A DNA stretch of 64,000 bases from a virus. Shown one piece after another: positions 1,973-26,033 of the stretch (positions are counted from its first letter, which is position 1; the number at the start of each line of letters is the position of its first letter). Under the pieces are notes generated by a model. That model ran no database searches. It was given only the letters and a program-made list of their open reading frames with translations, and had not been told where the DNA came from. The stretch lies in IMG/VR virus record IMGVR_UViG_3300020578_000058, positions 4,828-68,827 of that record, one strand, 5' to 3'. The position numbers were made by a program, and so were the translations under genes.

Positions 1973-2054
1973 GCCGTGGCGGTGACTACGCTATGAAGAA
2001 CCGCAGGGGTGGAGGCGTCCGGTGTCCCACCATTCTTGCGTAAAGCGGATTGTC

Positions 2055-2333
2055 ATGGCGAAGCGGGTTGCTGCGCGTTGGGTTGAGGCCCATGCGACCC
2101 CGCACCACCGCCTGACGGTCTACTTGTCCGCCGACAACATGACCAACATCCCGGCGGCGCTGCGCTCCTTCCGTAACGGGAACATGCGCCTTGCCTCCGT
2201 GCCTCCCATTCCCGACCTCGGGCTGCAAGTGGAGTTCGACCACCTCACCGTGTGGTCGCAGAACCGCACGGCCATGCTCGCCTTGGAGAAGTGGTTGCAG
2301 GCCCGAGGGTGCGAAACCATCGGAGTTTGGTGA
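2055..2333 (+). CDS. Hypothetical protein with N-terminal RVAARW motif
   Basis: ORF follows a late-promoter-like motif, and its stop overlaps the next start (TGATG). Start uncertain (2022 or 2055). Confidence 0.6.
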   Translation: MAKRVAARWVEAHATPHHRLTVYLSADNMTNIPAALRSFRNGNMRLASVPPIPDLGLQVEFDHLTVWSQNRTAMLALEKWLQARGCETIGVW

Positions 2334-8084: not shown

Positions 8085-8086
8085 TC

Positions 8087-10260: not shown

Positions 10261-12179
10261 GCCTTGCGGACCTTGCCATCGCAGCGGGTCGGCGCACCAC
10301 TTCGGACGCGACCGACACGGGTGTAGATGTCATCACCTTCATTGAGGCCCCGTGGGGGCTTGGGCTACGCCTGTTCCCCGTGCAACGGGTCATCCTCAAA
10401 GCCCACTACGGCTTGGAGTTAGACGACAACCCGCACGGGTTCGACCTCGCACAGCCTGTTCCGGCAGACCACCCCGAGTACCGCCTCGACCTCGTGGACG
10501 ACGACGGGTTCTACGCGCTTCGCATTCCGGTCACAGACTGGCGGCGGCAGAACCTTCGGTACTTGACCGAAGCGGGCTACCTCCGCTACCTGTACGACGA
10601 CGGGCGGTGCAATGTCCGTGAGGTCGTTCCCGGCAAGGAGCGCCGGGAAATGGTGCTCTCGGTCGGACGGCGTTCGGGCAAGACGCTCATCACTTCCTGC
10701 ATTATTGCCTATGAAACCTACAAGTTGCTCCTCAAAGGCAACCCGCAGGCGTACTACGGCTCGTCGCAAAGCAATGTCGTGCAACTTATCTCGGTGGCAA
10801 CGGACAAAGACCAAGCGGGTCTGCTGTACCGGGAGGCAAGCGGCCACTTCTCCAAGTGCGACTTCTTCAAGGCGTACATGGCGAACGCCACGCAGTCGTT
10901 CGCCACCTTCCAGACGCCCTTCGACATTGAGCGGTACGGCTCCTACAAGGACAACCCGAAGGCCCGCTACTCGATCAATGTGACCTTTCGCTCTTGCGTG
11001 GCGAAGGGGCTGCGCGGCGGTGCCAACATTCTCGTTGCCTTGGACGAGGTTGCCCACTTCACCGACGAGGGGCAGTCGTCGGCGGACGATGTGTACCAAG
11101 CCGTCGAGCCGTCTACCCGAACCTTCTCCCCGAAAGACCCAAAGAACACCACCAAGCCCATCGGAGAGAACGAGGGTCGCATCATCCTCATCTCGTCGCC
11201 GCTCGGTAAGCAGGGGTTGTTCTACAAGCAGTACACGCTCGGGTTCACGGGTGGTGTGGCCGCCGACAACATGCTCTGCATTGAGGCCCCGACTTGGGAG
11301 GTCAACCCGACCGTCCCCGCAGGCACCTTTGAGGGCTCGTACCTCAAAGACCCCCGTGTGTTCTTCACCGAGTTCGGCGCGCAGTTCACCGACCGGACCC
11401 GTGGTTGGATTGAGAGCGCGGACGACCTGTTCGCTTGCATTGACCCCGACGCCCGCCCCAAGACCCGTGGGGCTCCGCGCTACCCGCACTTCATGGGCCT
11501 CGATGTGGCGCTCGTGGGCGACTACACCTCCGTCGCTATTGGGCATGTCACGCCCGAGGGCAAGGTGGCCCTCGACTACATTGACCGCATTCGTGCCGGG
11601 GAGGGCGACTACCGCAACCAAGAGCGGTTGGAGTTTGACGATGTGGCCGATTGGGTAGAGCGCCTCTCCAAGCAGTTCTACATAAGCGAAGGCATCTTCG
11701 ACCAATGGGCCGGTATCCCAATGGAGCAGGCTCTTGCCAAGCGCGGGCTCGGGCAAATGAAGTCCGTCCACCACACGCGCTCGCTCACCTCGCAGATGTT
11801 TCAGAACTTCAAGGACATGATGCTCGACAAGCGGCTGGTCTTGTTCGACTGGCCCAAGCCCGAGGGCGAGGATCACGCGGAGTACCTTCAAGAACTGCTG
11901 GAACTCCAAGCCGAGGTCGTCAGCAAGTATGTCATCCTCGTGTCCGCCCCCAACATGGACGGCAAGCACGACGACTACGCGGACGCCCTCGCGCGCATGG
12001 TGTGGGTTGCCACCGCCAAGGCAGGCAAGCCCGTCACTATCACCGGGGTCCACTCCTCCCGCTCGCTTGCCTCTATGTCTCGCACGGTGTCGCCGGTTGG
12101 CAACCTTCTCCGTCTCAAACGGACGGGGAGCCATCCCGACCGCATGGTGCCCAAGGCCCACAAGAAGAACAGGCGGTGA
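10257..12179 (+). CDS. terL: Terminase large subunit
   Basis: LFPVQ adenine-binding motif, Walker A GRRSGKT, Walker B VALDEVAH, coupling motif ISSP, RNase H-like GLDVA...D and HDDYAD. Confidence 0.93.
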   Translation: MSLADLAIAAGRRTTSDATDTGVDVITFIEAPWGLGLRLFPVQRVILKAHYGLELDDNPHGFDLAQPVPADHPEYRLDLVDDDGFYALRIPVTDWRRQNLRYLTEAGYLRYLYDDGRCNVREVVPGKERREMVLSVGRRSGKTLITSCIIAYETYKLLLKGNPQAYYGSSQSNVVQLISVATDKDQAGLLYREASGHFSKCDFFKAYMANATQSFATFQTPFDIERYGSYKDNPKARYSINVTFRSCVAKGLRGGANILVALDEVAHFTDEGQSSADDVYQAVEPSTRTFSPKDPKNTTKPIGENEGRIILISSPLGKQGLFYKQYTLGFTGGVAADNMLCIEAPTWEVNPTVPAGTFEGSYLKDPRVFFTEFGAQFTDRTRGWIESADDLFACIDPDARPKTRGAPRYPHFMGLDVALVGDYTSVAIGHVTPEGKVALDYIDRIRAGEGDYRNQERLEFDDVADWVERLSKQFYISEGIFDQWAGIPMEQALAKRGLGQMKSVHHTRSLTSQMFQNFKDMMLDKRLVLFDWPKPEGEDHAEYLQELLELQAEVVSKYVILVSAPNMDGKHDDYADALARMVWVATAKAGKPVTITGVHSSRSLASMSRTVSPVGNLLRLKRTGSHPDRMVPKAHKKNRR

Positions 12180-13058: not shown

Positions 13059-13379
13059 ATGCCGCGCCCCACAACCCTCGACCCCGCCGAAGTAGACCGC
13101 ATGGTGGAGCGGCAGGTGCGCTCTGCGGCGCAAGCCGTGGCATCGGCGTTGCGGGCGGTAGAGCAGACGCACACTCCCCGTTCTCGGCGGGTGGCGCGGC
13201 ACCTTGCAGGCGTGCTGCGAATGCTCCAAGACACGGGCAGGGTCACCTCACCCTTCGACCCCGTGGACGAGCCCTCCACAGGTCGGGCGGCAAAGGTCGC
13301 CGCCCCACTCCCCGAGCCCCCTCCTCCCGTCGAACCTCCTGCACCCCCGGCAACAGAAGTAGAGGCACCCGATGCGTGA
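13059..13379 (+). CDS. Hypothetical protein (Pro-rich tail)
   Basis: GAGG upstream; overlaps the portal start. Confidence 0.55.
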   Translation: MPRPTTLDPAEVDRMVERQVRSAAQAVASALRAVEQTHTPRSRRVARHLAGVLRMLQDTGRVTSPFDPVDEPSTGRAAKVAAPLPEPPPPVEPPAPPATEVEAPDA

Positions 13380-15075
13380 GCAAGACGACGCTACGCCGGT
13401 CGGGCATGTTCCCTCGGGTGACGGCAAGTCCAAGGCCAAGACGGGCAAGCCCCGCAAGGTCGCCACGACGGCCATGCGCTCCAAGTTCGCCTCCATCGGA
13501 GGGGGTTTGGGCGGTGCGGGCACCGTGCAGGGCATGGGCGGCAACTTCTACTCGCCCGAACTCTCAACCGACTTCCTTGAACTCCCGCAAAGCCTTCACG
13601 AACAATGGAACTACTATCGGTTCTTCTACCGTTCCGAGCCGTTCGTCGGGCAGGCCATTGATCTCCACACCGAACTCCCGCTCTCCAAGATCCGCATTGC
13701 TCGCCCGAAGGCCAAGAATGTGGAACTCGCACAGGAGGCCACGCGCTTCTGCGAGCGGTGGGCGCAGCGCATTGGGCTGCTCCACCGGCTCATCGCCATC
13801 GTCCACGAACGCAACCTCATTGGCGAGGTGTTCATTTGGTGCGAGGACGCCAACCCCGACATGCCCCGCGAGGTGCGCGAAGAAGTCCTGCGTGAACTGA
13901 ACGAGGACGGCGAAGCCGTTGAGCGGTGGGTGGTTCGGGACGACGCCGACGAGCGCGCCGCCCGGTGGCTGCGGAAGAACTACAAGGGGTGGACGGGCGT
14001 GCGGTGCTTGCCCCCCGAACAGGTGCGCGTCGAGTCGTTCAACTTCACCGACGAACGCATCTTTGAGTTGATCCCCGACAGCAAGACCAAGAGCATTATT
14101 GAGAAGTCCGACTCGGGGGACGCGAACGCGCAGCGCGTGGTGGCGTCCATGCCACCGGATGTGGTGGCGGCGGTGCGTAACGGCGCGAACATTCCGTTGA
14201 ACACCGACCCCGACGCGGGCTCCTTCGTCTACTACATGGCGAACCGCAAGTCGGACTACGAGCAGCGTGGGCGCAGCATTCTTGAACGCTGTATGCGCGT
14301 CTTGGTGTACCGGGACAAGTTGCGGCAGGCGCAGACAAGCATCGCTTCGCGGCACATGACCCCCATTCGGCTCGTGTACGCCGAGGACATGGATCAAGCC
14401 GATGTGGAGGCGTTGCGTGAGCAGGTAGACCTTGCCCTGCAAGACCCCGACTACTCCATCATTGCGAACTTCCAAGTGAACTGGGAAGAAATGGGGGCCG
14501 ACCAACGGCTTCTCGATCTTGGGACCGAGTACGACATGACCGACCGGCAGTTGTACGCGGGCTTGGGCGTGACGGAGGGCTTGCTCTCGGGCGAGAGCGC
14601 CTACTCGGGCGACCGCATCAACTTGGAGGTCATCAACACGCGCTACATGCTGCTGCGGGAGCAGGTGCAAGACCTCGCGGAGAACGCCTTCTTCCGGCCC
14701 ATGTGTGCGCGCATGGGCTTTGTGGAGGAGGACGAGTACGGCGAAATGCAAGTTCTTGTGCCGCGCTTGTCGTTCACGCGGCTTGCGCTCCGCGACAACT
14801 CCGACACCTTCGACGCCCTCTACAACCTCTACACGAAGGGGTCGCTCGATGTGGACACCATCCTTGAACTTCTGAACCTTGACCCTATTGCGGTCAGGGA
14901 GAAGGTCGAGCGTGACCTGTTCACGGTCAATGACCCGACCTTCAATGAAGTCATGCGGGGCATCTACGGAGACGCGGGCCGCAAGTTGGCCGAGGAGAGC
15001 GATGTTGTCACCAAGATCGCCAAGGGTCTTGGCCTCAAACACACGCCCCCCAAGGAGGGGGGCGACCGCTTTTAG
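13372..15075 (+). CDS. Portal protein
   Basis: 567 aa downstream of terL. YRFFYRSEPFVGQAIDLH, GEVF, RGRSILERC and LYAGLGVTEGLL are typical of portal proteins. Confidence 0.85.
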   Translation: MREQDDATPVGHVPSGDGKSKAKTGKPRKVATTAMRSKFASIGGGLGGAGTVQGMGGNFYSPELSTDFLELPQSLHEQWNYYRFFYRSEPFVGQAIDLHTELPLSKIRIARPKAKNVELAQEATRFCERWAQRIGLLHRLIAIVHERNLIGEVFIWCEDANPDMPREVREEVLRELNEDGEAVERWVVRDDADERAARWLRKNYKGWTGVRCLPPEQVRVESFNFTDERIFELIPDSKTKSIIEKSDSGDANAQRVVASMPPDVVAAVRNGANIPLNTDPDAGSFVYYMANRKSDYEQRGRSILERCMRVLVYRDKLRQAQTSIASRHMTPIRLVYAEDMDQADVEALREQVDLALQDPDYSIIANFQVNWEEMGADQRLLDLGTEYDMTDRQLYAGLGVTEGLLSGESAYSGDRINLEVINTRYMLLREQVQDLAENAFFRPMCARMGFVEEDEYGEMQVLVPRLSFTRLALRDNSDTFDALYNLYTKGSLDVDTILELLNLDPIAVREKVERDLFTVNDPTFNEVMRGIYGDAGRKLAEESDVVTKIAKGLGLKHTPPKEGGDRF

Positions 15076-15515
15076 TAGAGCGGGCCGAATTCCGCCCGCC
15101 GCAGGGCGAGCGTCTCGGCCATGTCCTCGGGGTGCGGGTCTTCCCACCCCTCGTCCAGCATGTCGAGGGCGGTGGCGAGCGCCTTGCGCTCCCCGGTCAC
15201 CCGCACCCACTCGGGGCGGGCGAAGTTCACCACCCACCGCTCGGTGACGGCGAGGGCGTGCTTGCACGCCCCCACCCGCCCGTGGTCGGGGCAAGTACAG
15301 TTGAAGGTGGCGCGGTCGAGGTCCACGCGCACCGCGTATTCCTCGCTGCCGAGGACGCGGGCGACGAGGAGTCCCCCGTTGTTACGGGCCACGGCCCACG
15401 CCACCTTGACGGTGGCGGCGCGCTCGCGCCGGGCGCGGTTCGCGCCGTCGAGGAGGCGGCGAGCCGCCTGCCCACGAGCGCGGAGGGTGGCGAGCGCGGC
15501 GTCGAAGTCGTTCAT
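15072..15515 (-). CDS. SWIM zinc-finger protein
   Basis: YAVRVD...FNCTCPD...ACKHALAV (CxC...CxH). AAGGAG RBS before the ATG at 15515. Confidence 0.8.
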   Translation of the reverse strand: MNDFDAALATLRARGQAARRLLDGANRARRERAATVKVAWAVARNNGGLLVARVLGSEEYAVRVDLDRATFNCTCPDHGRVGACKHALAVTERWVVNFARPEWVRVTGERKALATALDMLDEGWEDPHPEDMAETLALRRAEFGPLY

Positions 15516-15556
15516 GCGGTGCTCCTTGCCTGTGAAACAGGACGGGCGGGGTGAGA

Positions 15557-15590
15557 GGGGTACGCGGCACCGGGCTACCGCGAAACCCCC
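15557..15590 (-). promoter_or_regulatory. Conserved phage promoter-like motif, copy 1
   Basis: Minus strand reads GGGGG TTTCGC-N17-TACCCC. Confidence 0.7.
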
Positions 15591-16009
15591 TCCACGAACG
15601 AAATGTCGAGGGTCCACTCATGCCGGGACCGCTCCTCCCATTCAGCCCGCGCCCGGTCAAGGTAGTCGGCGCACTCCTGCTCCGACCAACCGTTCACTTT
15701 GCGGAGGTGCTTGACGGCTTGCGGACCACGCCCAACGGCGAACGCCCGCCCAATGTGCTTGACCTCGTGGCAGGACGGGCAGAGGGCCACGAGCCCCACG
15801 AGCCGTTGGACCCGTGTGGTGTCGTCGTACTCCCACCGCTCGTGCGCCTCGACGGGCCACTTGCGGCCCTTGCCGCCGCAGACCTCGCACCTGTGCCCTG
15901 CCGCCTCGTAGCAGGCACGGCGCAGCCTGTCCCACTCCGAGGGGCGCAACCGCGAGCGTAGGTTGTCGCCCCATTGGCTCGCGGGCACGAGGTCTACTGT
16001 GAGCCTCAT
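15575..16009 (-). CDS. HNH-like endonuclease
   Basis: WDRLRRACY...CEVCG...EAHERW...LVALCPSCHEVKH. GGAGG RBS. Confidence 0.8.
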   Translation of the reverse strand: MRLTVDLVPASQWGDNLRSRLRPSEWDRLRRACYEAAGHRCEVCGGKGRKWPVEAHERWEYDDTTRVQRLVGLVALCPSCHEVKHIGRAFAVGRGPQAVKHLRKVNGWSEQECADYLDRARAEWEERSRHEWTLDISFVEGVSR

Positions 16010-16029
16010 GCGGCCTCCGACCAATCCAG

Positions 16030-16063
16030 AATGTACGCAGCACCCTTGTCCCCCGAAACCCCC
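16030..16063 (-). promoter_or_regulatory. Conserved phage promoter-like motif, copy 2
   Basis: Minus strand reads GGGGG TTTCGG-N17-TACATT. Confidence 0.65.
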
Positions 16064-16131
16064 TCCTGCATGAAAAGTTCGGGGGCGGTGACGAGCCTAT
16101 GCACCGTCCCGAAGCAAGGTGAACCACGCCC

Positions 16132-19100
16132 ATGCTCCGTCGCCACGCTGCCACACCCAAGAAGTACGAGCACATCGACTTCACCCCGCCCGAGGGTGCG
16201 GCCAATGCTGCTGCGAAGGGCTTGGAGTACCGTGAGAAGGCCAGCCCTTCCAACAAGGGCGGGCTTACGCCTGCCGAGGCGAGCAAAGAGGGCATTGGTT
16301 CGGGCGTGCAGCGTGCGGTGAACTTGAAGAACCGCAACACGCTCTCACCCGACACCATCAAGCAGATGCACGGCTTCTTCTCGCGCCACGAGAAGAACAA
16401 AGGTGTGGCCCCCGAACACAAGTCCGAGCCGTGGAACGACAAAGGGCATGTGGCGTGGCTTCTGTGGGGGGGAGACGCAGCAAGGTCGTGGGTCGATAAG
16501 GTTCTCGGGCAAATGGAGAAGGCCGACGAGAGAGAGGCCGTGAAAAAGGCTGCTCGGTTCCTCGCTTCCGGCCCGTCCCTGTCATTGGACGACCTCGGCT
16601 ACGGGAGCCTCACGACGGACGAGGAAGCCTTGTTGCTCACCCCCTCGGCTGCGTTCCCGGCGAATGTGCTTGCGTTCATTCCGCAGGTGCCTTGCCCCGA
16701 GAACTCGTCTTTGGAGACGCGGCGGGAACTTGCCCACTTGCTTCGGTTGCAGCACGAGGCCCGGCCCTACCTCGCACAGCAGGTAGCCGCGACCGACGAG
16801 AACGCTACGGCCACCTTGGAGGCGTACTGCGCCGAGCACGGGTTGGACGCAAGCGGTGTGCTCCCCATCACGAACGCTGCCCGCCCGGTGATCCTGCAAG
16901 TCAAGCGGCTCTATAACCGCCCGCGCCCGTACCAACTGGCCGAGTTCTTGGAGCCGGGGTTCCGCCCCATGTCGTCCACGACGGCCCACACGCCGTCGTA
17001 TCCGAGCGGTCATTCGGCGCAGGCGGTGCTTGTCGCGCTGCTCCTGTCGGGGCTTTACCCCGAGCACCGGGACGCTTTCATGGCTCTCGCCCAAGAAGTC
17101 GGCACACACCGCATGGTCGGCGGCTATCACTTCCTTTCGGACATTACCTACGGCGAGCAAGTCGGGCGGGTGCTCTACGAAAGCATGGCCCGCGCCTCGG
17201 TGCGTACCGCTGCCGCCAAGTACGCTGCCGCCAAGTACGCTGCCGCCAAGTACGCTGCCGCCAAGTACAAGGAAAAGAAGAAGGTTCCCAAGGCGGACGG
17301 GTCGGGCAAGACGACCGTGTATGTCTACTCCGAGCGGCAGGTGGCGAACCGTCACCGGGAGAAGGCCGAGCGGTTGGAGGACTTCAAGCCCGCTCTCGCG
17401 GAACTTCGCGCACAGGTCAAGAAAGACCTCGACGCGAATGACCCGAAGAAGAACTTGGTCGCCCTCGCCGTGGGCCTCATTGACGCGACTTACGAGCGGG
17501 TCGGCAACGAGGACAGCGCCGACAATGGGCACTACGGGGTCACGGGGTGGCTCCGCAAGCATGTGACCTTCAAGGGCAAGCGTGCCGTCATTCGCTATGT
17601 GGGCAAGTCGGGCGTCAAGCACGAGAAGTCGGTGGACGACGAGGCTCTTGTCGGCGCATTGAAGAAATGCTGCGGAGACAAGGACGGGGACGAGGCCGTG
17701 CTCTCCCTTGGCAAGCACACCGTCACCTCCGATGAGGTGAACAAGTACCTCAAACCCTACGGCATCACCGCCAAGGACTTGCGGGGGCTGCACGCCAACC
17801 GGGAGATGCAGGAGCGCCTGCGCGCTATCCGCAGCAAGGGGCCGAAACTGCCCCGGCTTCGGAAGGAGCGCGACCCCATTCTCAAAGAGGAGTTCCAGAA
17901 GGCGTTGGAGGGTGCCGCCGAAGCCGTGGGGCATGAGCCTGCGACCTTGCGGAAGCAGTACCTCGTCCCCGGCATCGAAGAAGCCTACATGAAGGACGGC
18001 ACGGTGACCCGCGACCTCACGGCGAGTACCCGTGTCGCCGCCCTCTACTTGCGGGCGACCAAGACCGACGCCGAGCGCGAGGACGAGGAGGCCGAGCGGC
18101 TGCTCAAACCCGAGCCGAAGTACAAGCCACCTCGGAACGACTTGCGCCGTCGCCGTGTCGAGACGGAGCAGGACGCCGACCCCGACAAGAAGCAAGACGA
18201 CAAGGACAGGTCGCAGAACTACAAGGACGCTGCTCACCGAGCGTTGGTGCAGCGCGTGGCCGCACGCTTCTTGTTTGCGAAGTCCGGTCCCGGTGGGAGT
18301 GCTACCAACACCTTGCAGGAGCGCGCACAGAAGGAGTTCGACGCCTACGAGAAGGAACACCCCGACACCGAACTCAAGGTCGAGGACTTCGTAGAGCGCA
18401 TCCAGAAGCAGCAGCAGGGGTCCAGCGGTGGGGCTCCACTCAATGAGAAGGCCCAAGCCGCCCAACAGAAAGCGGAGTTGGCAGCGTTAGAGGTCAAGCG
18501 AAAGTCCGAGGGTGTGCAAAAGGCCGTGGACAAGGTTTCGGCTATGTGGAAGGACATGCCGAACCTTCCCGGCATGTCCAAGCAGAACCACGAGCGCATC
18601 AAAGAAGCCGTCTCGTCCTTTGGCCCCAAGCAGCGCGAGGAGTTCCTTGCCGCCTTTGAGACAGAGAAGGACGCCCTCGTAGGCAAGTACGCCGGGGACA
18701 AGAGCGAGTACGACCCGGCGTTTGTCGAAGAAGCCCTGCAAAGCATGGAGAACACCCCGAAGGGCAAAGACCCCAAGGCCGTGGGAAAGAAAGCCATGCA
18801 GGCCATCTTCACCGACCGTGTGCTGCTCAACCCGCTTATGCTCACACCCTCGGATCCCTTGTCAGACAACCCTGACAAGGGAGACGAGCGACACCCCCCT
18901 GCCAAGGCAGCGAAGCGGGTGGGCCAAGCCGTCAAGCGGTTCTCCCGCGCTTCCAAGGCCGAAGTGGACGCCATGAGCGGCAGGCTCAAGTCTGCCCTCA
19001 AAGCGTGTGAGCCCGGCTCCCCCCAACACGAGGAGTTGCTTGCCATGCAGTATGGCATGGCGGTGGCCGCTGCCATGCCCAAGGCGAAACCCAAGGGCAG

Positions 19101-19803
19101 GCACGGAGACGAGCCCGAAGGAGAGGGGGGGAAGCCCGAGAAGGCCGCGAAGCCTCCCGAGGGCATGTCCGGCGTCGAGTTCGGCTTGCTCCAACACCTG
19201 CACAAGAAGGGGGACGACACATCCGAGTTGGTGGGGTTGTCGTTCCGCAATAGCCGGGACGACAAGAGCGCCGTGGCAGACACCAAGAAGTTTGTCCGCG
19301 AACAGGCAGATGGCATGAGCATGGGCGAGTTGAACGACATGCTCCCCCCGAACATGCAAAGTCTCTCTGCGTCGTTCCTCGCCTTGAAGAAGTCGCTCCC
19401 CTTTGTGAGCGAGGGGTTGTTCTCGGGCTTCTCGGAAAAGTCGCGCTCCAAGCAGCGTGCAGAGCAAGAAGCCGGGTGGAGCAAAGACGAGGCTCGGATC
19501 GCAGACGAACTCCGCACGACGCTCGTAGACTGCGTTTCCGAGACGGTCGGCAAGGACGAGAAGGCGGTCACACGAGCAAGCAGGTCCGTCAAGGACTACG
19601 CTCATGACACCGCAACGCCCAAGGGGGACGCAAGCAAGTCCGGCAAGTCGTGGGCAGACTGGTTGCAAGGGTTGCGGGCAGACTTCATGAAGGCGCTTGG
19701 CTCGTCCTCCAAGACGGGTTCCCGTCGAGTGTGGTCACCCACCGTGCCCGGCTACGCGCTTGACGCGCCTCCGCTCTCGGTAGCGGCTCTATACACCCTC
19801 TGA
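16132..19803 (+). CDS. Multidomain polyprotein: head-associated N-terminal domain + PAP2/haloperoxidase-type phosphatase + DNA topoisomerase IB + charged helical C-terminus
   Basis: PAP2 motifs KRLYNRPRP, PSYPSGHS and RMVGGYHF (~16680-17190). Topo IB motifs ERVGN, YVGKSG, TAKDLR and VGHEPATLRKQYL (~17270-18010). Confidence 0.85.
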   Translation: MLRRHAATPKKYEHIDFTPPEGAANAAAKGLEYREKASPSNKGGLTPAEASKEGIGSGVQRAVNLKNRNTLSPDTIKQMHGFFSRHEKNKGVAPEHKSEPWNDKGHVAWLLWGGDAARSWVDKVLGQMEKADEREAVKKAARFLASGPSLSLDDLGYGSLTTDEEALLLTPSAAFPANVLAFIPQVPCPENSSLETRRELAHLLRLQHEARPYLAQQVAATDENATATLEAYCAEHGLDASGVLPITNAARPVILQVKRLYNRPRPYQLAEFLEPGFRPMSSTTAHTPSYPSGHSAQAVLVALLLSGLYPEHRDAFMALAQEVGTHRMVGGYHFLSDITYGEQVGRVLYESMARASVRTAAAKYAAAKYAAAKYAAAKYKEKKKVPKADGSGKTTVYVYSERQVANRHREKAERLEDFKPALAELRAQVKKDLDANDPKKNLVALAVGLIDATYERVGNEDSADNGHYGVTGWLRKHVTFKGKRAVIRYVGKSGVKHEKSVDDEALVGALKKCCGDKDGDEAVLSLGKHTVTSDEVNKYLKPYGITAKDLRGLHANREMQERLRAIRSKGPKLPRLRKERDPILKEEFQKALEGAAEAVGHEPATLRKQYLVPGIEEAYMKDGTVTRDLTASTRVAALYLRATKTDAEREDEEAERLLKPEPKYKPPRNDLRRRRVETEQDADPDKKQDDKDRSQNYKDAAHRALVQRVAARFLFAKSGPGGSATNTLQERAQKEFDAYEKEHPDTELKVEDFVERIQKQQQGSSGGAPLNEKAQAAQQKAELAALEVKRKSEGVQKAVDKVSAMWKDMPNLPGMSKQNHERIKEAVSSFGPKQREEFLAAFETEKDALVGKYAGDKSEYDPAFVEEALQSMENTPKGKDPKAVGKKAMQAIFTDRVLLNPLMLTPSDPLSDNPDKGDERHPPAKAAKRVGQAVKRFSRASKAEVDAMSGRLKSALKACEPGSPQHEELLAMQYGMAVAAAMPKAKPKGRHGDEPEGEGGKPEKAAKPPEGMSGVEFGLLQHLHKKGDDTSELVGLSFRNSRDDKSAVADTKKFVREQADGMSMGELNDMLPPNMQSLSASFLALKKSLPFVSEGLFSGFSEKSRSKQRAEQEAGWSKDEARIADELRTTLVDCVSETVGKDEKAVTRASRSVKDYAHDTATPKGDASKSGKSWADWLQGLRADFMKALGSSSKTGSRRVWSPTVPGYALDAPPLSVAALYTL
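17209..17268 (+). repeat. Perfect tandem repeat (GCTGCCGCCAAGTAC)x4 encoding (AAAKY)4
   Basis: Seen directly at the phosphatase/topoisomerase junction. Confidence 0.95.
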
Positions 19804-19881: not shown

Positions 19882-20550
19882 ATGGCCCGTCTCACCCGCC
19901 AAGGGGCGCGCAACCTCACCGCAGCCCTCGACAACATCGCCCAAGTCGTCCAGCAGCGCGCCGCGTTGCTCGGCCTCGACACGCGCACGGCTACCGACTT
20001 CGCGTACCGTTGCGACCTCTTGTCGGACGCTATTGAGCGCACCGCTTCCGCGAACTTCCCGCTCTCCCGGCAGGCCACAGACGCCTATGGCAAGGGCAGC
20101 GACGACGAGGGCATGAGCGTCGAGCACGGCGAGGGTGGGTTCGACCCGAACTTGATTGGGGACGAGGTTCCCGGCCCGTTGGAGATCATCGAGCCCCCGA
20201 GCGAGCCGTGGATGGACGGGCACTTCACGCAGGAGAAGTACCACGTCCTCGGTGAGTTGCAGGAGGCGGGCGAACTCGGCCCCGTTCACCTCGCTTCGCT
20301 TCTGACCAAGGCTGCGGGCATCATCCTCGCGCAAGAGAGCGACAAGGAGGAGCAGGAGGAGGAGCAGCAGGAGGTCAAGAAGTCGGCCAAGAAGGGCCAG
20401 CAGAAGGGCAAAGTTCCTCCGCAGTTCCTTGAGCAGCAGAAGAAGAACAAGGGTGAGGAGCAGCAGGCCGAGAAGGAGGAGCAGCAGGAGAAGGGCGCCA
20501 AGAAGAAGGCGTCGGCTGCGAATGATTGGGGCTTCAACCTCACCCGCTGA
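19882..20550 (+). CDS. Head/scaffold-associated hypothetical protein (E/Q/K-rich)
   Basis: AGGAG RBS. The low-complexity EEQQ/KKGQQK segments are shared with the scaffold ORF. Confidence 0.65.
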   Translation: MARLTRQGARNLTAALDNIAQVVQQRAALLGLDTRTATDFAYRCDLLSDAIERTASANFPLSRQATDAYGKGSDDEGMSVEHGEGGFDPNLIGDEVPGPLEIIEPPSEPWMDGHFTQEKYHVLGELQEAGELGPVHLASLLTKAAGIILAQESDKEEQEEEQQEVKKSAKKGQQKGKVPPQFLEQQKKNKGEEQQAEKEEQQEKGAKKKASAANDWGFNLTR

Positions 20551-20573
20551 ACCTCTTGCTGCGAGGCGAGCCC

Positions 20574-21140
20574 GTGAGCCGCACCCACCGCACCGCACAG
20601 AACTATGTCAACTACCAAGAACGGGCTTCCGAGTTCGCGGTAGGTGATGTAGTCGTTCCCTTCGGCTATTGGCCGGGGGTGTCGGGCCGTATTGTGGCCT
20701 TGTGGCCCGCTATCGGCATGGCCGATGTGCAGTTCACGGGCGGGACAAAGCGGTATCCCGTCGAAGAACTGCAACGCATTGACGCTGATGGCAATGCCAA
20801 CCCCCCGCGCACCGATAGCGTGCCGGGGGGCAAGGGCACGGTGCCGGTTCCCACGACATCGCCCCCGCAGCGGGACGACATTGACGCGCTCGCCACGCGG
20901 GTCGCGCACGGCTTCGTGCGGAACGCGCTCTACTGGTCGGCGCCGGGGCGCAAGTACCGCTTGACCCGCTCCGAACAAGACGCAGGCTGCTACAACTGCC
21001 CGAAGTGTGACGACTCCCCCTTGCGCCGCACCGTGTACAAGCGCATGAACGGGGTGAGCGAGCGGTTGCTCGGCTGTCCCGCCTGTCTCTTTCTCATCAA
21101 GGAAGGGGACATTCTCGGGCACGACCGCGAGGGTGGGTGA
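20574..21140 (+). CDS. Hypothetical protein: SH3-like domain + zinc ribbon
   Basis: FAVGDVV...GRIVALW...VQF, followed by CPKC...CPAC. Confidence 0.6.
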   Translation: MSRTHRTAQNYVNYQERASEFAVGDVVVPFGYWPGVSGRIVALWPAIGMADVQFTGGTKRYPVEELQRIDADGNANPPRTDSVPGGKGTVPVPTTSPPQRDDIDALATRVAHGFVRNALYWSAPGRKYRLTRSEQDAGCYNCPKCDDSPLRRTVYKRMNGVSERLLGCPACLFLIKEGDILGHDREGG

Positions 21141-21143: not shown

Positions 21144-22619
21144 ATGGCTTTCATGAAGTACGCTCGCGCGCAGGTCATGCACCCCCGCATCACGGGGGCC
21201 GCGTGGCAGGGCATCCGTAAGCAGGCGTCGTCTGCCCCCACGGCGTCAAAGAACCTCGTGGCGCAAGCAGGCGAGATCCTCGGGGAGACTTTCTCCCCTG
21301 AGCGGTACTTGTTGACACACTGTTCGATTGTGGCAAGCGTCGATGTGGATACGGTGCCGAATGTGAAGTTGGGCACCGAGAAGGTCGGCTCCCGCACCGT
21401 CACGCGGAAGTGGGCCGACTACTACATCAAGCCAGAGTGCGCGCAGTTTGTGAACAACAACGGCGACTCGTGGTCCCGCGAAGTGCTCATGAAGTCGTTC
21501 CGCACCTTCATTGGGGCGCACAACTTCTTGGAGCATGTGCAAATCGAGGAGCAGTCGAAGGGCCGCATCATTGACGCCGTGGCCCGCAACATTGGCCCTT
21601 CGGTCTATGTGGACATTCTCGTGGCGACCGACCGCAAGCACGCCCAACTCGTGCAGGACATTGAGAGCGGTAAGATGAGCACGCTCTCGATGGGCTGCTC
21701 CTGCGAGTTCACGCTTTGCTCTCAATGCGGGAATGTCGCGGTGGACGAGACGGACCTTTGCGAGCATGTGAAGTACTCCAAACTCAACACCTTCTTCGAT
21801 GCCCGTGGGCAGCGGCGGGTCATTGCAGAACTGTGTGGGCACTCCTCTCACGGGGAAACGGGTGGGGTTCAATTCATTGAGGCGTCTTGGGTCGCCGTTC
21901 CGGCCTTCGCAGGCGCGGTCATGCGGAACATCCTTGACCCCGGTTCCGTCTCGCCCGAGAAGGCCAAGCATTTCTCCGAGGTGCTATCGGCACCTCCTGC
22001 CGAGTGGGGCACCAACATCCTCCGCGCTGCGTCCGAGCACCGCACGGCGCAGCAGTTCGACTTCGGGGACGAGGGTGGCGACGAGGGTGGTGAAGGGGAG
22101 GGGGACACCAAACCCCCCGAGAAACCTTCCAGCCCTTTCGCGGACATGGAGGACGAACTCTACACGGCGGTCAAGAACCGCGTGAAAGAGCGGTTGGAGA
22201 AGGAACTGCGTGAGCAGAATGTCGAGAAGGCTCTCGACACCCCGACCGCCCCGAACGAGAGCGTCATCAAGGAAGCGGCTATAACCAAGGCCGCTGTGCA
22301 GAAGTTCGCCCGTGAAGCCCATGCCAAGAGCGTTGACACGCTTCTTCGGGTAGCATCCTCGGACGCTGCTTTCGTGGACGGGCTTGTGGAAATCGACCGT
22401 TCTTTTGGACTTCGCGTTCCACAGTCTGTCTATCGCACGGCCCTTACGGTAGGTGCGACCACGAACTACCTTTCTCCTGACGACTACTTCTGCGCCTGTC
22501 ATAAGCAAGCGCGGAGGGTGCTCTCCCCTTCCGAACTTCGGGTCGCATACCGAATCGGCAACCTGCTCACCCGAAAGGGGAGCATTCACCCCCGCAACCG
22601 AGGACACAACCATGCGTGA
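21144..22619 (+). CDS. Prohead (capsid maturation) protease with zinc-ribbon insertion
   Basis: NNNGDSW, FLEH, KGRIIDA, LSMGC...CSQC...CEH and FIEASWVAVPA follow the HK97/assemblin-fold protease pattern. Located before the scaffold and MCP. Confidence 0.8.
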   Translation: MAFMKYARAQVMHPRITGAAWQGIRKQASSAPTASKNLVAQAGEILGETFSPERYLLTHCSIVASVDVDTVPNVKLGTEKVGSRTVTRKWADYYIKPECAQFVNNNGDSWSREVLMKSFRTFIGAHNFLEHVQIEEQSKGRIIDAVARNIGPSVYVDILVATDRKHAQLVQDIESGKMSTLSMGCSCEFTLCSQCGNVAVDETDLCEHVKYSKLNTFFDARGQRRVIAELCGHSSHGETGGVQFIEASWVAVPAFAGAVMRNILDPGSVSPEKAKHFSEVLSAPPAEWGTNILRAASEHRTAQQFDFGDEGGDEGGEGEGDTKPPEKPSSPFADMEDELYTAVKNRVKERLEKELREQNVEKALDTPTAPNESVIKEAAITKAAVQKFAREAHAKSVDTLLRVASSDAAFVDGLVEIDRSFGLRVPQSVYRTALTVGATTNYLSPDDYFCACHKQARRVLSPSELRVAYRIGNLLTRKGSIHPRNRGHNHA

Positions 22620-24195
22620 GCGTCTGACTTGGAAGCGCGGCGGGGCTCTCAATGCTCCCCCGCGCCGTGCTTCTGCCCACCCCGCCTACCCCGACGAGGG
22701 TGCCGCCTCCCCGGCTTACCAGCCCGACCCCGAGGCCGACGCCTACGAGAACGGCAATCCTTCTGCGTGGGCCGAAGACCCGAACCCCGGCCCGTACCCG
22801 CAGTCGGCGCACCCCTCGTACCCCGACGAGGGGCCTGCCTCTCCCGCCTACATCGCCAAGCAGGGCAGCGTTGCCCTCGCCTTGGAGCGCAAGGCCGCCA
22901 AGTGCGTTCGCCTCGCTTCGGCCATGCTCGGGCCGACCGCTTCGCAGCACGAAGTCGAGAGCCAAGCGTTCGCGTTCATGGACATGAGCGAGCGCGCCCT
23001 CCAAGCCTCCCTCTCCCGTCTCGCGCAGCAGGACGAGGAGGAGCAGCAGGACGCCGAGGAGCAGCAGGCCGAGGAGCAGGCCAAGAAGGCCGCCCTCCGT
23101 CGCCGCGCGCAGCAGGCCAAGAAGGACGCCGAGGAGCAGCAGGCCGAGGAGCAGCAGGCCGAGGAGCAGCAGGAGGTCAAGGGTGGCAAGAAGGCCGCTC
23201 TCGCCAAGGCTGCTTACTTGCGCCGCCTCGCGCAGCAGATTGAGGAAGAAGTCGAGGAGGAGGTCGAGGACGACGACTCCGACGAGGACGAGGACGAGGC
23301 GCAGCAGGAGAAGGGAGCCAAGAAGGCTTCCGTTCTTGACGCCCGCCTTGCCCGCATCGAGCGCCTCCTGACCGCTGGCGTTCCCGGCATGTTCATGCAG
23401 CACAACATGGCGCAGCAGAAGTCTCCCGAGGAGGCCATGTTTGAGGCCATGCAGGACGAGGCCATGCAGGACGAGGCGCAGTCCTTGGAGGAGATGCTCT
23501 TGGAGGAGATGCAGGACGAGGCGCAGCAGGACGAGGCGCAGCAGGACGAGGCGCAGTCCTTGGAGGAGATGCTCTTGGAGGAGATGCAGGACGAGGCGCA
23601 GCAGGCCCCCAAGCCCTTCGGCATGATGGCCGAGCAACTTGCCATGCAGGGCGACAACGCTGGCCCGATGGTCGAGTCCATGCGGCACAACATGGCGCAG
23701 CAGGCTCCCATTGAGGCGCAGTTGGCCGAGATGCTCCAAGAGGAGGGCATGGCCGGTGTGCTTGGTGCCGAGTACGCGGACGAAGCCGAAGCCATGCTCG
23801 TTGACCCGAGCGGCGACGACTACATCGGCGCAGACGGGATGCTCGTTGACCCGAGCGGGGACAACTACGACGACGGCATGGTGGCCGACCCGATGGGCCT
23901 CATGGGTGACGGCGGCAACGAGGACGACGCCATTCTTGCGTCCCTCTTTGGTGGCGAGGCCATGAAGTACGCCAAGAAGGGTCAGCAGGGCCATGCCGAC
24001 GCCGAGGCGCAGGAGGAGGAGCAGGAAGCCGACGAGCCCAAGAAGGGCCAGCAGAAGGCCGCTGCCCTTCGCCCGCAGCCCCGCAAGGCGTCCACGGGTG
24101 CCACCCGCCTCGGGGGCATCACGAAGGAGGCTGCCGAGGTTGGCGACCTGTCGAAGTTGTGGGAGTCGGCCCCCGATGTGAGCAAGTACTTCTAA
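22612..24195 (+). CDS. Capsid scaffolding protein (very acidic, repetitive)
   Basis: GAGGA RBS, E/Q/D/M-rich repeats, many K/R-x-A linkers, and position between the protease and capsid genes. Confidence 0.7.
   Translation: MRERLTWKRGGALNAPPRRASAHPAYPDEGAASPAYQPDPEADAYENGNPSAWAEDPNPGPYPQSAHPSYPDEGPASPAYIAKQGSVALALERKAAKCVRLASAMLGPTASQHEVESQAFAFMDMSERALQASLSRLAQQDEEEQQDAEEQQAEEQAKKAALRRRAQQAKKDAEEQQAEEQQAEEQQEVKGGKKAALAKAAYLRRLAQQIEEEVEEEVEDDDSDEDEDEAQQEKGAKKASVLDARLARIERLLTAGVPGMFMQHNMAQQKSPEEAMFEAMQDEAMQDEAQSLEEMLLEEMQDEAQQDEAQQDEAQSLEEMLLEEMQDEAQQAPKPFGMMAEQLAMQGDNAGPMVESMRHNMAQQAPIEAQLAEMLQEEGMAGVLGAEYADEAEAMLVDPSGDDYIGADGMLVDPSGDNYDDGMVADPMGLMGDGGNEDDAILASLFGGEAMKYAKKGQQGHADAEAQEEEQEADEPKKGQQKAAALRPQPRKASTGATRLGGITKEAAEVGDLSKLWESAPDVSKYF
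23452..23604 (+). repeat. Intragenic repeats encoding QDEA(Q/M) units and QDEAQSLEEMLLEEM twice
   Basis: CAGGACGAGGCGCAGTCCTTGGAGGAGATGCTCTTGGAGGAGATG occurs twice. Confidence 0.9.
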
Positions 24196-25157: not shown

Positions 25158-26033
25158 ATGTCTGTCAACAACAGCGTCAAGCAGAAGTTGATCTCGGAGT
25201 ACATCAACACTCCGCAGGGTCGCGCCAAGTTGGCCGCGTCGATGACGCAGCCGCTCCGTCTGCGCCGTGACTACATGGCGGTTGGTCGCAAGACCTTCCT
25301 CGTGGAGCAACTGCCGGACGGCGCGCTGCCGATCTACGACAAGGATCCCGATGTGACCGCGTTCGTGGTCGGTGAGGAGGGCGAGAACATCGTCGCCATC
25401 ACCAAGCCCCGCCGCGTCATCTTCCCCCTGTTTGAGATCGCGTCCAACCCCGAGATCCCCCTCACGCAAATCAAGGAGCGTCGGTTCGACCTCATTGAGC
25501 GCGCACAGGACTTGGCTCGGGCGCAGATCCAAGCAGCCGAGGACGAGCGGGTGTTCTCCGTTCTCGACGCCATCGCCACCAACGGCTTCGACTCGGTTTC
25601 GGGGCAGTTCAACCCCGACATCCCGGTTGTCGCCCCCATCAGCGGTGCCGTCCTCGCGGACGCCTACGCCGAGATCGAGCGGAACGACCTCCGCGTTGCC
25701 CGCGTGTTCATGAACGCTCGGGACTACGCGGACCTCCGCAAGTTCGGTCGGGACATCCTCGACATCGAGAGCCAGCGCGAGTTGCTCAAGACGGGCCTCA
25801 TGGGCACGCTTTGGGGCGCGCAGATCATCGTGTCGCGTCTCGTCCCGGTCGGCACGGTCTATGTCTGCTGCGAGCCCGAGATGTTCGGTCGGATGCCCGT
25901 CCGTACCGAGTTGACCGTGCTCTCTGCCGACGACCCGAAGGCCCGCACCATCGGCTTCTCCGTGTTCGAGAACATCGGTATCGGGGCCTACAACCCGAAG
26001 GGCCTCACGCGGTTGACCATCACCCGCGCGTAA
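25158..26033 (+). CDS. Major capsid protein (short HK97 fold)
   Basis: GGAGG RBS and 291 aa after protease/scaffold/decoration. FEIASNP, AQIQAAEDERVF, VFMNARDY and GTLWGAQIIVSRLVP resemble HK97-fold P/A domains. Strong terminator downstream. Confidence 0.85.
   Translation: MSVNNSVKQKLISEYINTPQGRAKLAASMTQPLRLRRDYMAVGRKTFLVEQLPDGALPIYDKDPDVTAFVVGEEGENIVAITKPRRVIFPLFEIASNPEIPLTQIKERRFDLIERAQDLARAQIQAAEDERVFSVLDAIATNGFDSVSGQFNPDIPVVAPISGAVLADAYAEIERNDLRVARVFMNARDYADLRKFGRDILDIESQRELLKTGLMGTLWGAQIIVSRLVPVGTVYVCCEPEMFGRMPVRTELTVLSADDPKARTIGFSVFENIGIGAYNPKGLTRLTITRA

What the first reader, a model, noticed from the sequence alone, without database searches (positions are those of the whole stretch)
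16132..19803. Head-operon polyprotein joining a PAP2-type phosphatase and a topoisomerase IB with putative cleavage linkers
Seen: a single 1,223-aa ORF between portal and protease with four parts. (i) A ~135-aa domain ending AWLLWGGD. (ii) Intact PAP2/vanadium-haloperoxidase motifs KxxxxRPRP, PSGH and RxxxGxH. (iii) A poxvirus/bacterial-type Topo IB with catalytic R, K, K/R, H and Y apparently intact. (iv) A long charged helical tail. The boundaries carry KKAARFLA, RTAAAKY, RVAALYLRA and RVAARFLFA. Inference: a precursor loaded into the prohead and cut into enzymes ejected with the genome, with Topo IB relaxing incoming DNA and the phosphatase acting on lipid or nucleotide signals, possibly as anti-defence. 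I do not know of this fusion being described.
Basis: partly seen in the sequence, partly recalled or inferred. Interest (0 to 1): 0.85.

Follow-up and report, generated by a model that had tools for sequence, protein, structure and literature searches.

The report
Huge-phage head-module topoisomerase–phosphatase cargo protein
An uncultured huge lake-water phage encodes, among its head-assembly genes, one long protein that strings a phosphatase and a DNA-relaxing enzyme together with short conserved tags, probably an enzyme kit loaded into the capsid, though packaging and cutting have not been shown.

Summary
ORF 16132-19803 (1,223 aa) lies between portal and head protease. It has a PAP2 phosphatase domain and a type IB topoisomerase, both with intact catalytic residues, an N-terminal helical domain and a 507-aa lineage-specific tail.

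The window is part of a 68.8-kb viral record rated 15% complete. Its capsid protein resembles those of a 485-kb uncultured phage and of Bacillus phage G.

This topoisomerase is a regular head-module gene: 69 of 80 related viral loci have portal, protease or capsid homologues within 10 kb. It occurs alone (about 280-400 aa) or in mosaics of up to 2,813 aa with phosphatase, 2H phosphoesterase, CCA-adding-like, SOD, pyrophosphatase and other modules in many orders.

The four "linkers" are copies of a clade-wide tag, [KR]-[VT]-A-[AS]-[RK]-[YFW]-L. The tag starts 57 of 83 stand-alone topoisomerases. Homology blocks break at it (282 of 387 alignment endpoints).

The best reading is a capsid cargo protein of the polyvalent-protein kind. 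Packaging, cleavage and ejection are inferred only.

I found no paper describing it. Earlier AI notes of this scan describe the same family and tag on other genomes.

The parts
16132..19803 (+). Whole ORF, 1,223 aa plus stop: modular head-module protein
   Evidence: full-length relatives of 57-86% identity over 86-88% of the query
16156..16536 (+). N-terminal all-helical domain (aa 9-135; phrog_2859, function unknown)
   Evidence: PHROG hit. AF2 pLDDT 86.8. No PDB match by sequence or fold. BFVD matches place the same fold in proteins named prohead protease, portal protein, XkdF, Dps and ParB. It stands alone in ORFs of 275 aa or less in 50 of 80 viral loci.
16543..16566 (+). Junction 1 (aa 138-145), K-K-A-A-R-F-L-A tag variant. 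The next residues, SGPSLSLDD, match the residues that follow ...A-R-T-A in relatives.
   Evidence: Relatives carry 1.0-1.7 kb of extra modules exactly here.
16567..17202 (+). PAP2 / class-A-acid-phosphatase-like module (aa 146-357; Pfam core 16900-17166)
   Evidence: PF01569, E 6e-16. PDB acid phosphatase 7f17 at 1e-13, PhoN 2akc at 8e-9. Motif residues located. No TM-like stretch: maximum Kyte-Doolittle 1.51.
17203..17268 (+). Junction 2 (aa 358-379): R-T-A-A-A-K-Y tag extended by a perfect 15-nt tandem repeat (17208-17268, 4.1 copies) that encodes (AAAKY)x4
   Evidence: The close relatives that carry this R-T-A-A-A-K-Y junction (P0002, P0003, P0005-P0012, P0014) have one copy.
17269..18030 (+). 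Minimal type IB topoisomerase (aa 380-633); catalytic R456, K492, R551, H601, Y610
   Evidence: PF01028, E 3e-22. Alignment to 2f4q. AF2 pLDDT 85.2. Foldseek top hits are 3m4a, 2h7g and 2f4q at E 3e-12 to 2e-11. The five residues are invariant in 60 sequences.
18031..18057 (+). Junction 3 (aa 634-642), R-V-A-A-L-Y-L-R-A tag. It is absent at this position in the more distant relative P0017.
   Evidence: predicted helix at model residues 280-293
18058..18252 (+). Conserved charged extension of the phage topoisomerase (aa 643-707), carrying the K-P-P-R and N-Y-K-D blocks
   Evidence: Follows the Topo module in 103 of 119 Topo-bearing homologues. KPPR occurs in 100 and NYKD in 68 of 120 proteins.
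18253..18279 (+). Junction 4 (aa 708-716), R-V-A-A-R-F-L-F-A: canonical tag
   Evidence: predicted helix at model residues 347-368
18280..19800 (+). Lineage-specific tail (aa 717-1223), charged, no known family
   Evidence: Only 7 hits at E<=0.001 among 1.84 billion representatives. Four (P0004, P0010, P0055, P0093) are long proteins that carry PF01028; three (P0242-P0244, 276-493 aa) were not examined. No Atlas hit. Found by BLAST in 29 of 120 homologues.
13372..15075 (+). Portal protein gene (context)
   Evidence: phrog_16240, E 8e-31
21144..22619 (+). Head maturation protease-like gene (context)
   Evidence: phrog_18299, E 1e-14; homologue within 10 kb of the topoisomerase in 65 of 80 loci
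25158..26033 (+). Major capsid protein gene (context)
   Evidence: phrog_2522, E 5e-53. 85% identity to LR745208 (485 kb), 49% to Tunturi_5, 40% to Bacillus phage G gp27.

Best explanation
The ORF is a modular cargo protein of the head module of an uncultured huge phage whose capsid protein resembles that of phage G. It is a form of phage 'polyvalent protein'.

Module order: a head-associated helical domain, a soluble class-A-type PAP2 phosphatase, a minimal type IB topoisomerase with its conserved charged extension, and a lineage-specific tail. The modules are joined by copies of a clade-wide peptide tag, [KR]-[VT]-A-[AS]-[RK]-[YFW]-L.

Shown here: domain identities and intact active sites; conserved position between portal and protease; the topoisomerase as a regular head-module gene in this clade; the tag at module borders and at the termini of single-domain proteins; module gain, loss and reordering at the tags.

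Inferred: the protein is made late with the head proteins. It is recruited into the prohead through the tags, with possible help from the N-domain or the tail. It is possibly trimmed at or near the tags by the head protease and is delivered with the DNA. There the topoisomerase would relax the packaged or incoming genome, as the virion topoisomerase of poxviruses is held to do (recalled). The phosphatase would remove phosphomonoesters from RNA ends or nucleotides.

This phage has the short form. Its close relatives carry a CCA-adding-type nucleotidyltransferase module and/or a 2H phosphoesterase module between the N-domain and PAP2.
For: - Domains and catalytic residues are intact.
- Head-operon position.
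- Synteny portal - big ORF - two small ORFs - protease - scaffold-like gene - capsid protein is kept in loci L002-L005, while the big ORF gains or loses whole modules.
- 69 of 80 IMG/VR loci that encode this topoisomerase have a homologue of the window's portal, protease or capsid protein within 10 kb. This includes loci where the topoisomerase is a stand-alone gene of about 350 aa.
- Fused partners in relatives include PAP2, 2H/LigT, PolyA_pol, InPase, SOD, GGACT, carbonic anhydrase, RNA ligase, cREC_REC and Ham1. InPase and 2H are named polyvalent-protein domains in Iyer et al. 2017 (PMC5512222, sections 20 and 23 read).
- Seven modules occur in 31 different orders among 120 homologues.
- Tag frequency: RVAA occurs 106 times against 7.3 expected. 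The consensus comes from 352 unique contexts. In six homologues and the query, the tags lie outside Pfam domains, apart from one conserved R-L-A-A-L segment inside the topoisomerase.
- 282 of 387 internal BLAST endpoints of the query fall within 12 aa of the four tag sites, which cover 11.8% of its length. The endpoints are not independent.
- 57 of 83 stand-alone topoisomerases carry the tag in their first 30 residues (68 of 83 with a looser pattern), against 0.01 in shuffles.
- In 68 distinct loci (1.28 Mb) the strict tag hits 73 plus-strand ORF positions and 1 minus-strand position. Other small head-module proteins start with the same tag.
- The N-domain fold is fused to prohead proteases and portal proteins in other phages.
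Against: - There is no direct evidence of packaging, cleavage or ejection. The clade is uncultured and no proteome was available.
- The 29-kb head regions of the cultured relatives phage G and Tunturi_5 have no tag and no such topoisomerase, so their virion data cannot be transferred.
- The tags are predicted as helices of moderate confidence and often lie 6-13 residues from a protein terminus. That suits a docking label better than a cut site.
- Junction 1 of this protein lacks the basic residue before A|S that relatives have.
- Many of the 120 homologues and 80 loci are close relatives, so the counts overstate independent events.
- The PAP2 substrate is unknown. In this phage the 2H and CCA-adding-type neighbours that suggest RNA-end healing are absent.
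- Iyer et al. 2021 (PMC7824862, passages read) list phage topoisomerase I of the tyrosine-recombinase superfamily among replication and topology genes of jumbo phages. A purely intracellular role is therefore an accepted alternative.
Confidence: 0.6

Rival explanations
1. The protein is packaged but not cut. It stays one polypeptide (a classical polyvalent protein), and the tags are only docking or address helices, or spacers that keep modules portable. They are not protease sites.
For: - The tag is predicted helical.
- It occurs within about 6-13 residues of the N- or C-terminus of single-domain proteins, where cutting would release only a tiny peptide.
- Iyer et al. 2017 note cases of polyvalent proteins transferred as full-length polypeptides (passages read).
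- A distinct, non-helical R-[TV]-A-S motif exists in relatives but is degenerate at junction 1 of this protein.
Against: - T4-type targeting peptides are both address and cut site (recalled; named in PMC5694885 by search listing only).
- Looser [KR]-x-A-[AS] sites recur in the acidic scaffold-like protein and in the protease's own C-terminal part, as expected of a maturation protease's substrates.
- A 134-kDa protein would be bulky cargo.
Confidence: 0.25
2. The protein is not ejected cargo. It is a late, head-assembly-associated enzyme that works during DNA packaging, for example a topoisomerase held at the portal or terminase vertex to release torsion while a roughly 0.45-Mb genome is packed. 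The phosphatase would be an unrelated passenger.
For: - The gene lies between terminase/portal and protease.
- The N-domain fold is fused to portal proteins elsewhere.
- The record is rated 15% complete at 68.8 kb, which implies a very large genome.
- Topoisomerase I of this superfamily is listed among DNA-topology genes of jumbo phages (PMC7824862).
Against: - The same tags and mosaics carry enzymes with no link to packaging: SOD, carbonic anhydrase, GGACT, InPase and RNA-end enzymes.
- The N-terminal tag is shared by unrelated small proteins.
Confidence: 0.1
3. The fusion is an assembly or frameshift artefact that joins separate genes.
For: - The PAP2-Topo junction contains a perfect 15-nt tandem repeat.
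- The repeat's copy number rests on this assembly alone.
Against: - The frame is open throughout.
- 34 of 120 homologue clusters from several sources have PAP2 and Topo IB in one protein.
- The repeat is in frame.
- Contigs of three other DNA runs reach into the repeat from both sides and bridge the other junctions.
Confidence: 0.02

Closest known systems
Phage polyvalent proteins (Iyer, Burroughs, Anand, de Souza, Aravind 2017, J Bacteriol, PMC5512222; abstract, sections 20, 23, 29, 32 and found passages read)
   Same: Several unrelated enzyme domains sit in one large protein encoded among virion and late genes. The protein is proposed to be packaged and delivered with the DNA. Relatives of this ORF carry the InPase and 2H phosphoesterase domains named in that paper.
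   Different: The main text does not mention PAP2, and mentions 'topoisomerase' only in its reference list; its supplements could not be seen. No MuF domain or zincin peptidase was found here by Pfam. Modules here are separated by one conserved tag, and the constant module is a topoisomerase IB.
Phage T4 capsid-targeting sequence on internal proteins IPI-III and Alt, removed by prohead protease gp21 (recalled; papers naming it seen only as a search listing)
   Same: A short peptide shared by unrelated proteins sits a few residues from the N-terminal Met, in proteins encoded with head genes.
   Different: The sequence is different. The tag here also occurs at C-termini and between modules, up to 8 per protein. 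Neither targeting nor removal has been shown.
Poxvirus and bacterial type IB topoisomerases (variola 2h7g/2h7f, vaccinia 1a41, D. radiodurans 2f4q/3m4a)
   Same: The catalytic fold and the R-K-R-H-Y pentad are shared. Poxviruses package the enzyme in the virion (recalled).
   Different: Identity is only 20-23%. The alignment to 2f4q starts at chain residue 77, and the model shows only a two-strand hairpin where those enzymes have an N-terminal domain. The window's enzyme also has a conserved charged C-terminal extension and flanking tags.
Topoisomerase I of jumbo phages PaBG, Lu11, Motura, NCTB, phiRSL1 (Iyer et al. 2021, PMC7824862, passages read)
   Same: A phage-encoded enzyme of the same superfamily. 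PaBG, Lu11, Motura and NCTB are hit by tblastn; phiRSL1 is not among the 14 records.
   Different: These are distant: 22-30% identity over 54-82% of the query. They are discussed there as DNA-topology genes. I did not examine their gene context.
Class A non-specific acid phosphatases (PhoN 2akc/2a96; acid phosphatase 7f17)
   Same: PAP2 fold family with all three signature motifs.
   Different: Those are secreted stand-alone enzymes (recalled). Here the domain is internal to a phage protein without a signal peptide or TM segment, and His replaces the usual Ser before R327.
Head-protein processing in phiKZ-like giant phages such as SPN3US (PMC5694885, PMC10052503, PMC7411985; search listings and abstracts only)
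   Same: Many packaged and ejected head proteins are cut by one prohead protease.
   Different: The phage lineage and the cut motif differ. Processing there is shown by mass spectrometry; here it is only inferred.

Membership tests
Type IB DNA topoisomerase (Pfam PF01028) | Profile match above the curated cut-off | tested here: met
   79.5 bits against a cut-off of 23.7, aa 406-608
Type IB DNA topoisomerase (Pfam PF01028) | Catalytic pentad Arg-Lys-Arg-His/Asn-Tyr in order | tested here: met
   R456, K492, R551, H601 and Y610 align with R137, K174, R239, N280 and Y289 of 2f4q. I counted the chain numbers in the alignment; the roles of those residues are recalled. All five are invariant in 60 sequences.
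Type IB DNA topoisomerase (Pfam PF01028) | Catalytic-domain fold | tested here: met
   AF2 pLDDT 85.2. Foldseek: 3m4a at 3e-12, 2h7g at 8e-12, human 1a35 at 1e-9. Tyrosine recombinases score far lower.
Type IB DNA topoisomerase (Pfam PF01028) | N-terminal DNA-binding domain of the poxvirus/bacterial full-length enzymes (accessory, not catalytic) | tested here: inconclusive
   The alignment to 2f4q begins at chain residue 77. The model has only strands 32-37 and 44-49 before the catalytic domain.
Type IB DNA topoisomerase (Pfam PF01028) | Relaxes supercoiled DNA through a 3'-phosphotyrosyl intermediate | not testable with these tools
   Needs a plasmid relaxation assay
PAP2 / class A acid phosphatase superfamily (Pfam PF01569) | Profile match above the curated cut-off | tested here: met
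   58.8 bits against a cut-off of 27.2, aa 257-345
PAP2 / class A acid phosphatase superfamily (Pfam PF01569) | Three signature motifs KX6RP, PSGH, (S)RX5HX3D (motif definitions recalled) | tested here: met
   K258...R265-P266; P291-S-G-H294; R327, H333, D337. The residue before R327 is His, not Ser.
PAP2 / class A acid phosphatase superfamily (Pfam PF01569) | Phosphomonoesterase activity and substrate | not testable with these tools
   Needs an enzyme assay
Phage polyvalent proteins (Iyer et al. 2017) | Two or more domains of disparate biochemical activity in one polypeptide | tested here: met
   PAP2 and Topo IB in one ORF. Relatives add up to four more Pfam families.
Phage polyvalent proteins (Iyer et al. 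2017) | Encoded next to virion/late genes of a phage | tested here: met
Phage polyvalent proteins (Iyer et al. 2017) | Link to a virion-anchoring domain (MuF or portal fusions in related proteins) | tested here: inconclusive
   No MuF was found. The N-domain fold occurs in BFVD proteins named portal protein and prohead protease.
Phage polyvalent proteins (Iyer et al. 2017) | Packaged in the capsid and injected with the DNA | not testable with these tools
   Needs virion proteomics or infection assays
T4-type capsid-targeting / protease-processed head cargo | Short peptide shared by unrelated head-module proteins near a terminus | tested here: met
   57 of 83 stand-alone topoisomerases. 23 plus-strand ORFs carry the tag within 25 aa of the first Met, including non-topoisomerase proteins. 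Window ORFs 2022-2333 and 61390-61950 also carry it.
T4-type capsid-targeting / protease-processed head cargo | The peptide is necessary and sufficient for capsid loading and is cut by the prohead protease | not testable with these tools
   Needs reporter-fusion and mass-spectrometry experiments

The most novel reading that the evidence does not exclude
A whole clade of uncultured huge phages with phage-G-like capsid proteins uses one portable peptide tag, read during head assembly, to load arbitrary enzymes into the capsid. A type IB topoisomerase is the near-constant cargo, so these tailed phages would have converged with poxviruses on delivering a virion topoisomerase. This ORF would be one such multi-enzyme precursor, cut into a head-associated domain, a phosphatase, a topoisomerase and a tail fragment.
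Probability: 0.45. Interest if true: 0.8.

Novelty: new variant of a known kind. Interest (0 to 1): 0.62.

Why it matters
- If the tag really addresses proteins to the capsid, it is a simple, transferable handle for loading chosen proteins into phage heads.
- It would explain how huge phages equip their virions with enzyme kits.
- A capsid-borne topoisomerase IB would be a functional parallel between tailed phages and poxviruses. It bears on how very long genomes cope with torsion during packaging, ejection or first transcription.
- The mosaic family shows domain shuffling at defined linkers in action.
- In relatives the CCA-adding-type, 2H and PAP2 modules lie next to each other, which suggests virion-delivered RNA-end repair. 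That hypothesis for counter-defence can be tested.

Tried and rejected
- **Protease with tag peptide (complex prediction).** I sent protease residues 1-295 (26-row alignment A3) with a 40-residue peptide around junction 4. The result was 'no answer', score 0.00 in both runs, and the controls were not run. It counts neither way.
- **RNA runs.** No RNA holder was listed for the stretch. Run X19 is labelled RNA-Seq but is probably DNA, and it holds only a 90-95% relative. Nothing can be said on expression.
- **Tandem repeat copy number.** In runs X6, X13 and X18 no listed contig piece bridges the 15-nt tandem repeat with 31 letters on both sides. Pieces end at 17134 or 17237 and restart at 17239. 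The copy number of four is therefore unconfirmed.
- **N-domain.** There was no PDB hit by profile at E<=10. The best Foldseek PDB hit had E 0.63. The best VIA-align Z was 5.1, within the noise for helical proteins. In the Atlas, all 30 listed clusters had no common Pfam family, and DUF6321 was nearest at 0.89. Its function remains unknown.
- **Tail.** There was no Atlas hit, only 7 sequence relatives, weak sub-threshold Pfam hits only, and no tblastn similarity to the Tunturi_5 'DNA ejection protein' or to phage G head-region genes.
- **Cultured relatives.** The Phage G, Tunturi_5, Vibrio phage 1.214.O and S-CBS4 loci hold no tag. The phage G multi-omics preprint (10.1101/2024.12.16.628780, passages read) gives no topoisomerase and no cleavage sites.
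- **Literature.** Seven searches found no paper on a head-module topoisomerase IB, a PAP2-topoisomerase fusion or this tag. Supplements of papers were closed and might list such architectures.
- **Membrane-lipid PAP2 role.** I considered it unlikely because no TM segment was found.
- **ORF 15121-15714.** Its translation is Arg/Ser-rich and ORFs overlap it on the opposite strand, so I did not use it as a gene.

Full report
**What is there.** The window holds an open frame at 16132-19803 on the plus strand, 1,223 codons from an ATG. An AAGGTG lies 7-13 nt upstream. Pfam places a PAP2 domain at aa 257-345 (58.8 bits, cut-off 27.2) and a topoisomerase I catalytic core at aa 406-608 (79.5 bits, cut-off 23.7). 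PHROGs adds an unnamed family, phrog_2859, on aa 10-133.

**Neighbours.** The nearby genes are a large terminase (10257-12179), a portal protein (13372-15075), a head-maturation-protease-like protein (21144-22619) and the major capsid protein (25158-26033). Two small ORFs stand between it and the protease.

**The enzymes look active.** Against PDB sequences the PAP2 part is closest to soluble acid phosphatases (7f17 at 1e-13; PhoN 2akc at 8e-9). The topoisomerase part is closest to D. radiodurans TopIB (2f4q, 3e-9) and variola/vaccinia topoisomerase.
- In the printed alignment to 2f4q, the query's R456, K492, R551, H601 and Y610 fall on the chain's R137, K174, R239, N280 and Y289. The roles of those chain residues are recalled.
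- The five positions are invariant in a 60-sequence alignment of phage relatives.
- An AlphaFold2 model of aa 350-725 (pLDDT 85.2) matches bacterial and poxviral TopIB structures first (E 3e-12 to 3e-11). Human and other long-form topoisomerase I follow, and tyrosine recombinases score far below.
- Only a two-strand hairpin precedes the catalytic domain, so this is a minimal enzyme.
- The PAP2 motifs are K258-x6-R265-P266, P291-S-G-H294 and R327-x5-H333-x3-D337. No stretch is hydrophobic enough for a membrane helix.

**What kind of phage.** The window is bases 4828-68827 of a 68,827-base viral record rated 15% complete. That implies a genome of several hundred kb. The capsid protein is 85% identical to that of a 485-kb uncultured phage (LR745208), 49% to Tunturiibacter phage Tunturi_5 (309 kb) and 40% to Bacillus phage G gp27. 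Near-identical DNA is held by 18 runs labelled lake-water or freshwater metagenome, each with at least half of the sampled words.

**The protein is one member of a large mosaic family.** A word-seeded search found 291 proteins of 672-2,141 aa at E<=0.001 among 8,000 scored candidates.
- Of the 120 listed, 119 hold the topoisomerase. By precomputed Pfam, 34 hold both PAP2 and the topoisomerase (my count).
- Other fused families are PolyA_pol, LigT/2H, InPase, Fe/Mn SOD, GGACT, carbonic anhydrase, RNA ligase, cREC_REC, Ham1 and DUF5661.
- I cut seven modules from this protein and its closest relative. The 120 proteins show them in 31 different orders, and this ORF's order (N-domain, PAP2, Topo, extension, tail) occurs in 2 of 120.
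- In syntenic loci the neighbours stay fixed while the big ORF changes. L002 has 1.7 kb more (CCA-adding-type plus 2H modules) and L003 has 1.0 kb more (2H) exactly at junction 1. L005 has PAP2 before the N-domain.

**The topoisomerase is a head-module gene in this clade.** A shorter-length search found 565 proteins of 30-671 aa. Many are stand-alone enzymes of about 275-400 aa on contigs of up to 549 kb. Of 80 IMG/VR loci fetched with the topoisomerase profile, 69 have a homologue of the window's portal, protease or capsid protein within 10 kb. In those loci the topoisomerase ORF ranges from 289 to 2,813 aa. Eleven loci showed no such neighbour by tblastn.

**The linkers are a tag.**
- RVAA is the only very frequent 4-mer that occurs several times per protein: 106 occurrences in 71 of 120 proteins against 7.3 expected.
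- 352 unique contexts give the consensus s-a-v-R-V-A-A-[RK]-[YFW]-L, with 1 to 8 sites per protein.
- In six relatives and the query, the sites lie outside Pfam domains, apart from one conserved segment inside the topoisomerase.
- 282 of 387 internal BLAST endpoints of the query fall within 12 residues of its four tag sites, which cover 11.8% of its length. The endpoints are not independent.
- 57 of 83 stand-alone topoisomerases carry the tag in their first 30 residues (68 of 83 with a looser pattern), against 0.01 in shuffles. Three carry it in their last 20 residues (12 with the looser pattern).
- Some stand-alone copies of the N-domain end with the tag: 8 of 50 short ORFs, 7 of them distinct.
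- Over 68 distinct loci (1.28 Mb) the strict tag hits 73 plus-strand ORF positions and 1 on the minus strand. Unrelated small proteins start with it.
- In the window a 6-residue pattern gives 8 plus-strand and 0 minus-strand hits. These include an N-terminal copy in ORF 2022-2333 and a C-terminal copy in ORF 61390-61950.
- The tag is kept in loci of 35-69% G+C, so selection acts on the peptide.
- The head regions of phage G and Tunturi_5 have none.

**A second motif.** In relatives these directly precede the 2H and PAP2 modules. In this ORF, junction 1 reads as a tag variant fused to the residues that follow that site in relatives. This looks like the scar of a deletion that removed the CCA-adding-type and 2H modules. 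Junction 2 carries a perfect 15-nt tandem repeat (17208-17268, 4.1 copies) that repeats AAAKY. The close relatives with this R-T-A-A-A-K-Y junction have one copy.

**The flanking parts.** The N-domain model is confident and all-helical, with no solved relative. In BFVD the same fold occurs in phage proteins named prohead protease, portal protein, XkdF, Dps and ParB. It stands alone in 50 of 80 loci. In Vibrio phage 1.214.O it heads a 659-aa coiled-coil protein two genes upstream of the capsid gene. It is therefore a head-module domain of unknown function. The tail has only 7 relatives among 1.84 billion representatives.

**Reading.** The anatomy fits the published idea of phage polyvalent proteins (PMC5512222). 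The position, the tag on termini of many head-module proteins and the fusion partners favour capsid cargo. Whether the tags are cut, or only dock, is open. Their helical prediction and terminal positions favour docking. The second motif, and looser [KR]-x-A-[AS] sites in the scaffold-like protein and the protease tail, favour processing. I put capsid cargo at about 0.6 and cutting at roughly even odds within that. The PAP2 role is inferred from neighbours in relatives: a 2H module directly precedes PAP2 in 13 of 36 PAP2-bearing homologues, many of them close kin.

**Known or new.** Phage topoisomerase I of this superfamily is noted in jumbo phages (PMC7824862), but those enzymes are only 22-30% identical. 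Seven literature searches found nothing on a head-module, tagged or PAP2-fused form. Earlier AI notes of this scan describe the same topoisomerase polyproteins and the same tag on many other genomes. They are leads, not independent evidence.

Noticed in passing
window 17208-17268: Perfect 15-nt tandem repeat, 4.1 copies, in frame, repeating AAAKY inside the PAP2-Topo junction. The close relatives that carry this junction have one copy. The copy number is not confirmed by other runs' contigs.
   Followed up: partly
window 20526-21140: A 204-aa ORF with paired Cys motifs (zinc-ribbon-like). It is the most constant neighbour of the topoisomerase, with a homologue in 67 of 80 loci. No PHROG hit.
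   Followed up: no
window 2022-2333 and 61390-61950: Two otherwise unrelated small ORFs carry the same tag, one a few residues from its likely start and the other 13 residues from its stop.
   Followed up: partly
window 8075-8965: A ferritin/Dps-like protein (phrog_3636 on aa 16-72) with an R-V-A-S site at aa 162, between its first part and an unrelated second part.
   Followed up: no
window 22612-24195: A very acidic, Gln/Glu-rich scaffold-like protein downstream of the protease. Its likely start is the Met at residue 54 of ORF 22453. It has several K-K-A-A/S sites followed by hydrophobic residues.
   Followed up: no
window 27553-28152: A thymidylate-kinase-like gene (phrog_761, E 1e-27) sits just after the capsid-gene block.
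   Followed up: no
window 15076-16131: The stretch between portal and the big ORF has overlapping high-GC3 ORFs on both strands. The plus-strand ORF 15121-15714 translates to an Arg/Ser-rich product that may not be a real protein.
   Followed up: no
L014 (Vibrio phage 1.214.O) 5072-7051: The N-domain heads a 659-aa 'coil containing protein' that lies two genes upstream of the capsid gene, roughly where a scaffold gene would sit, in a 44-kb phage that also has a separate MuF-type head morphogenesis gene.
   Followed up: no
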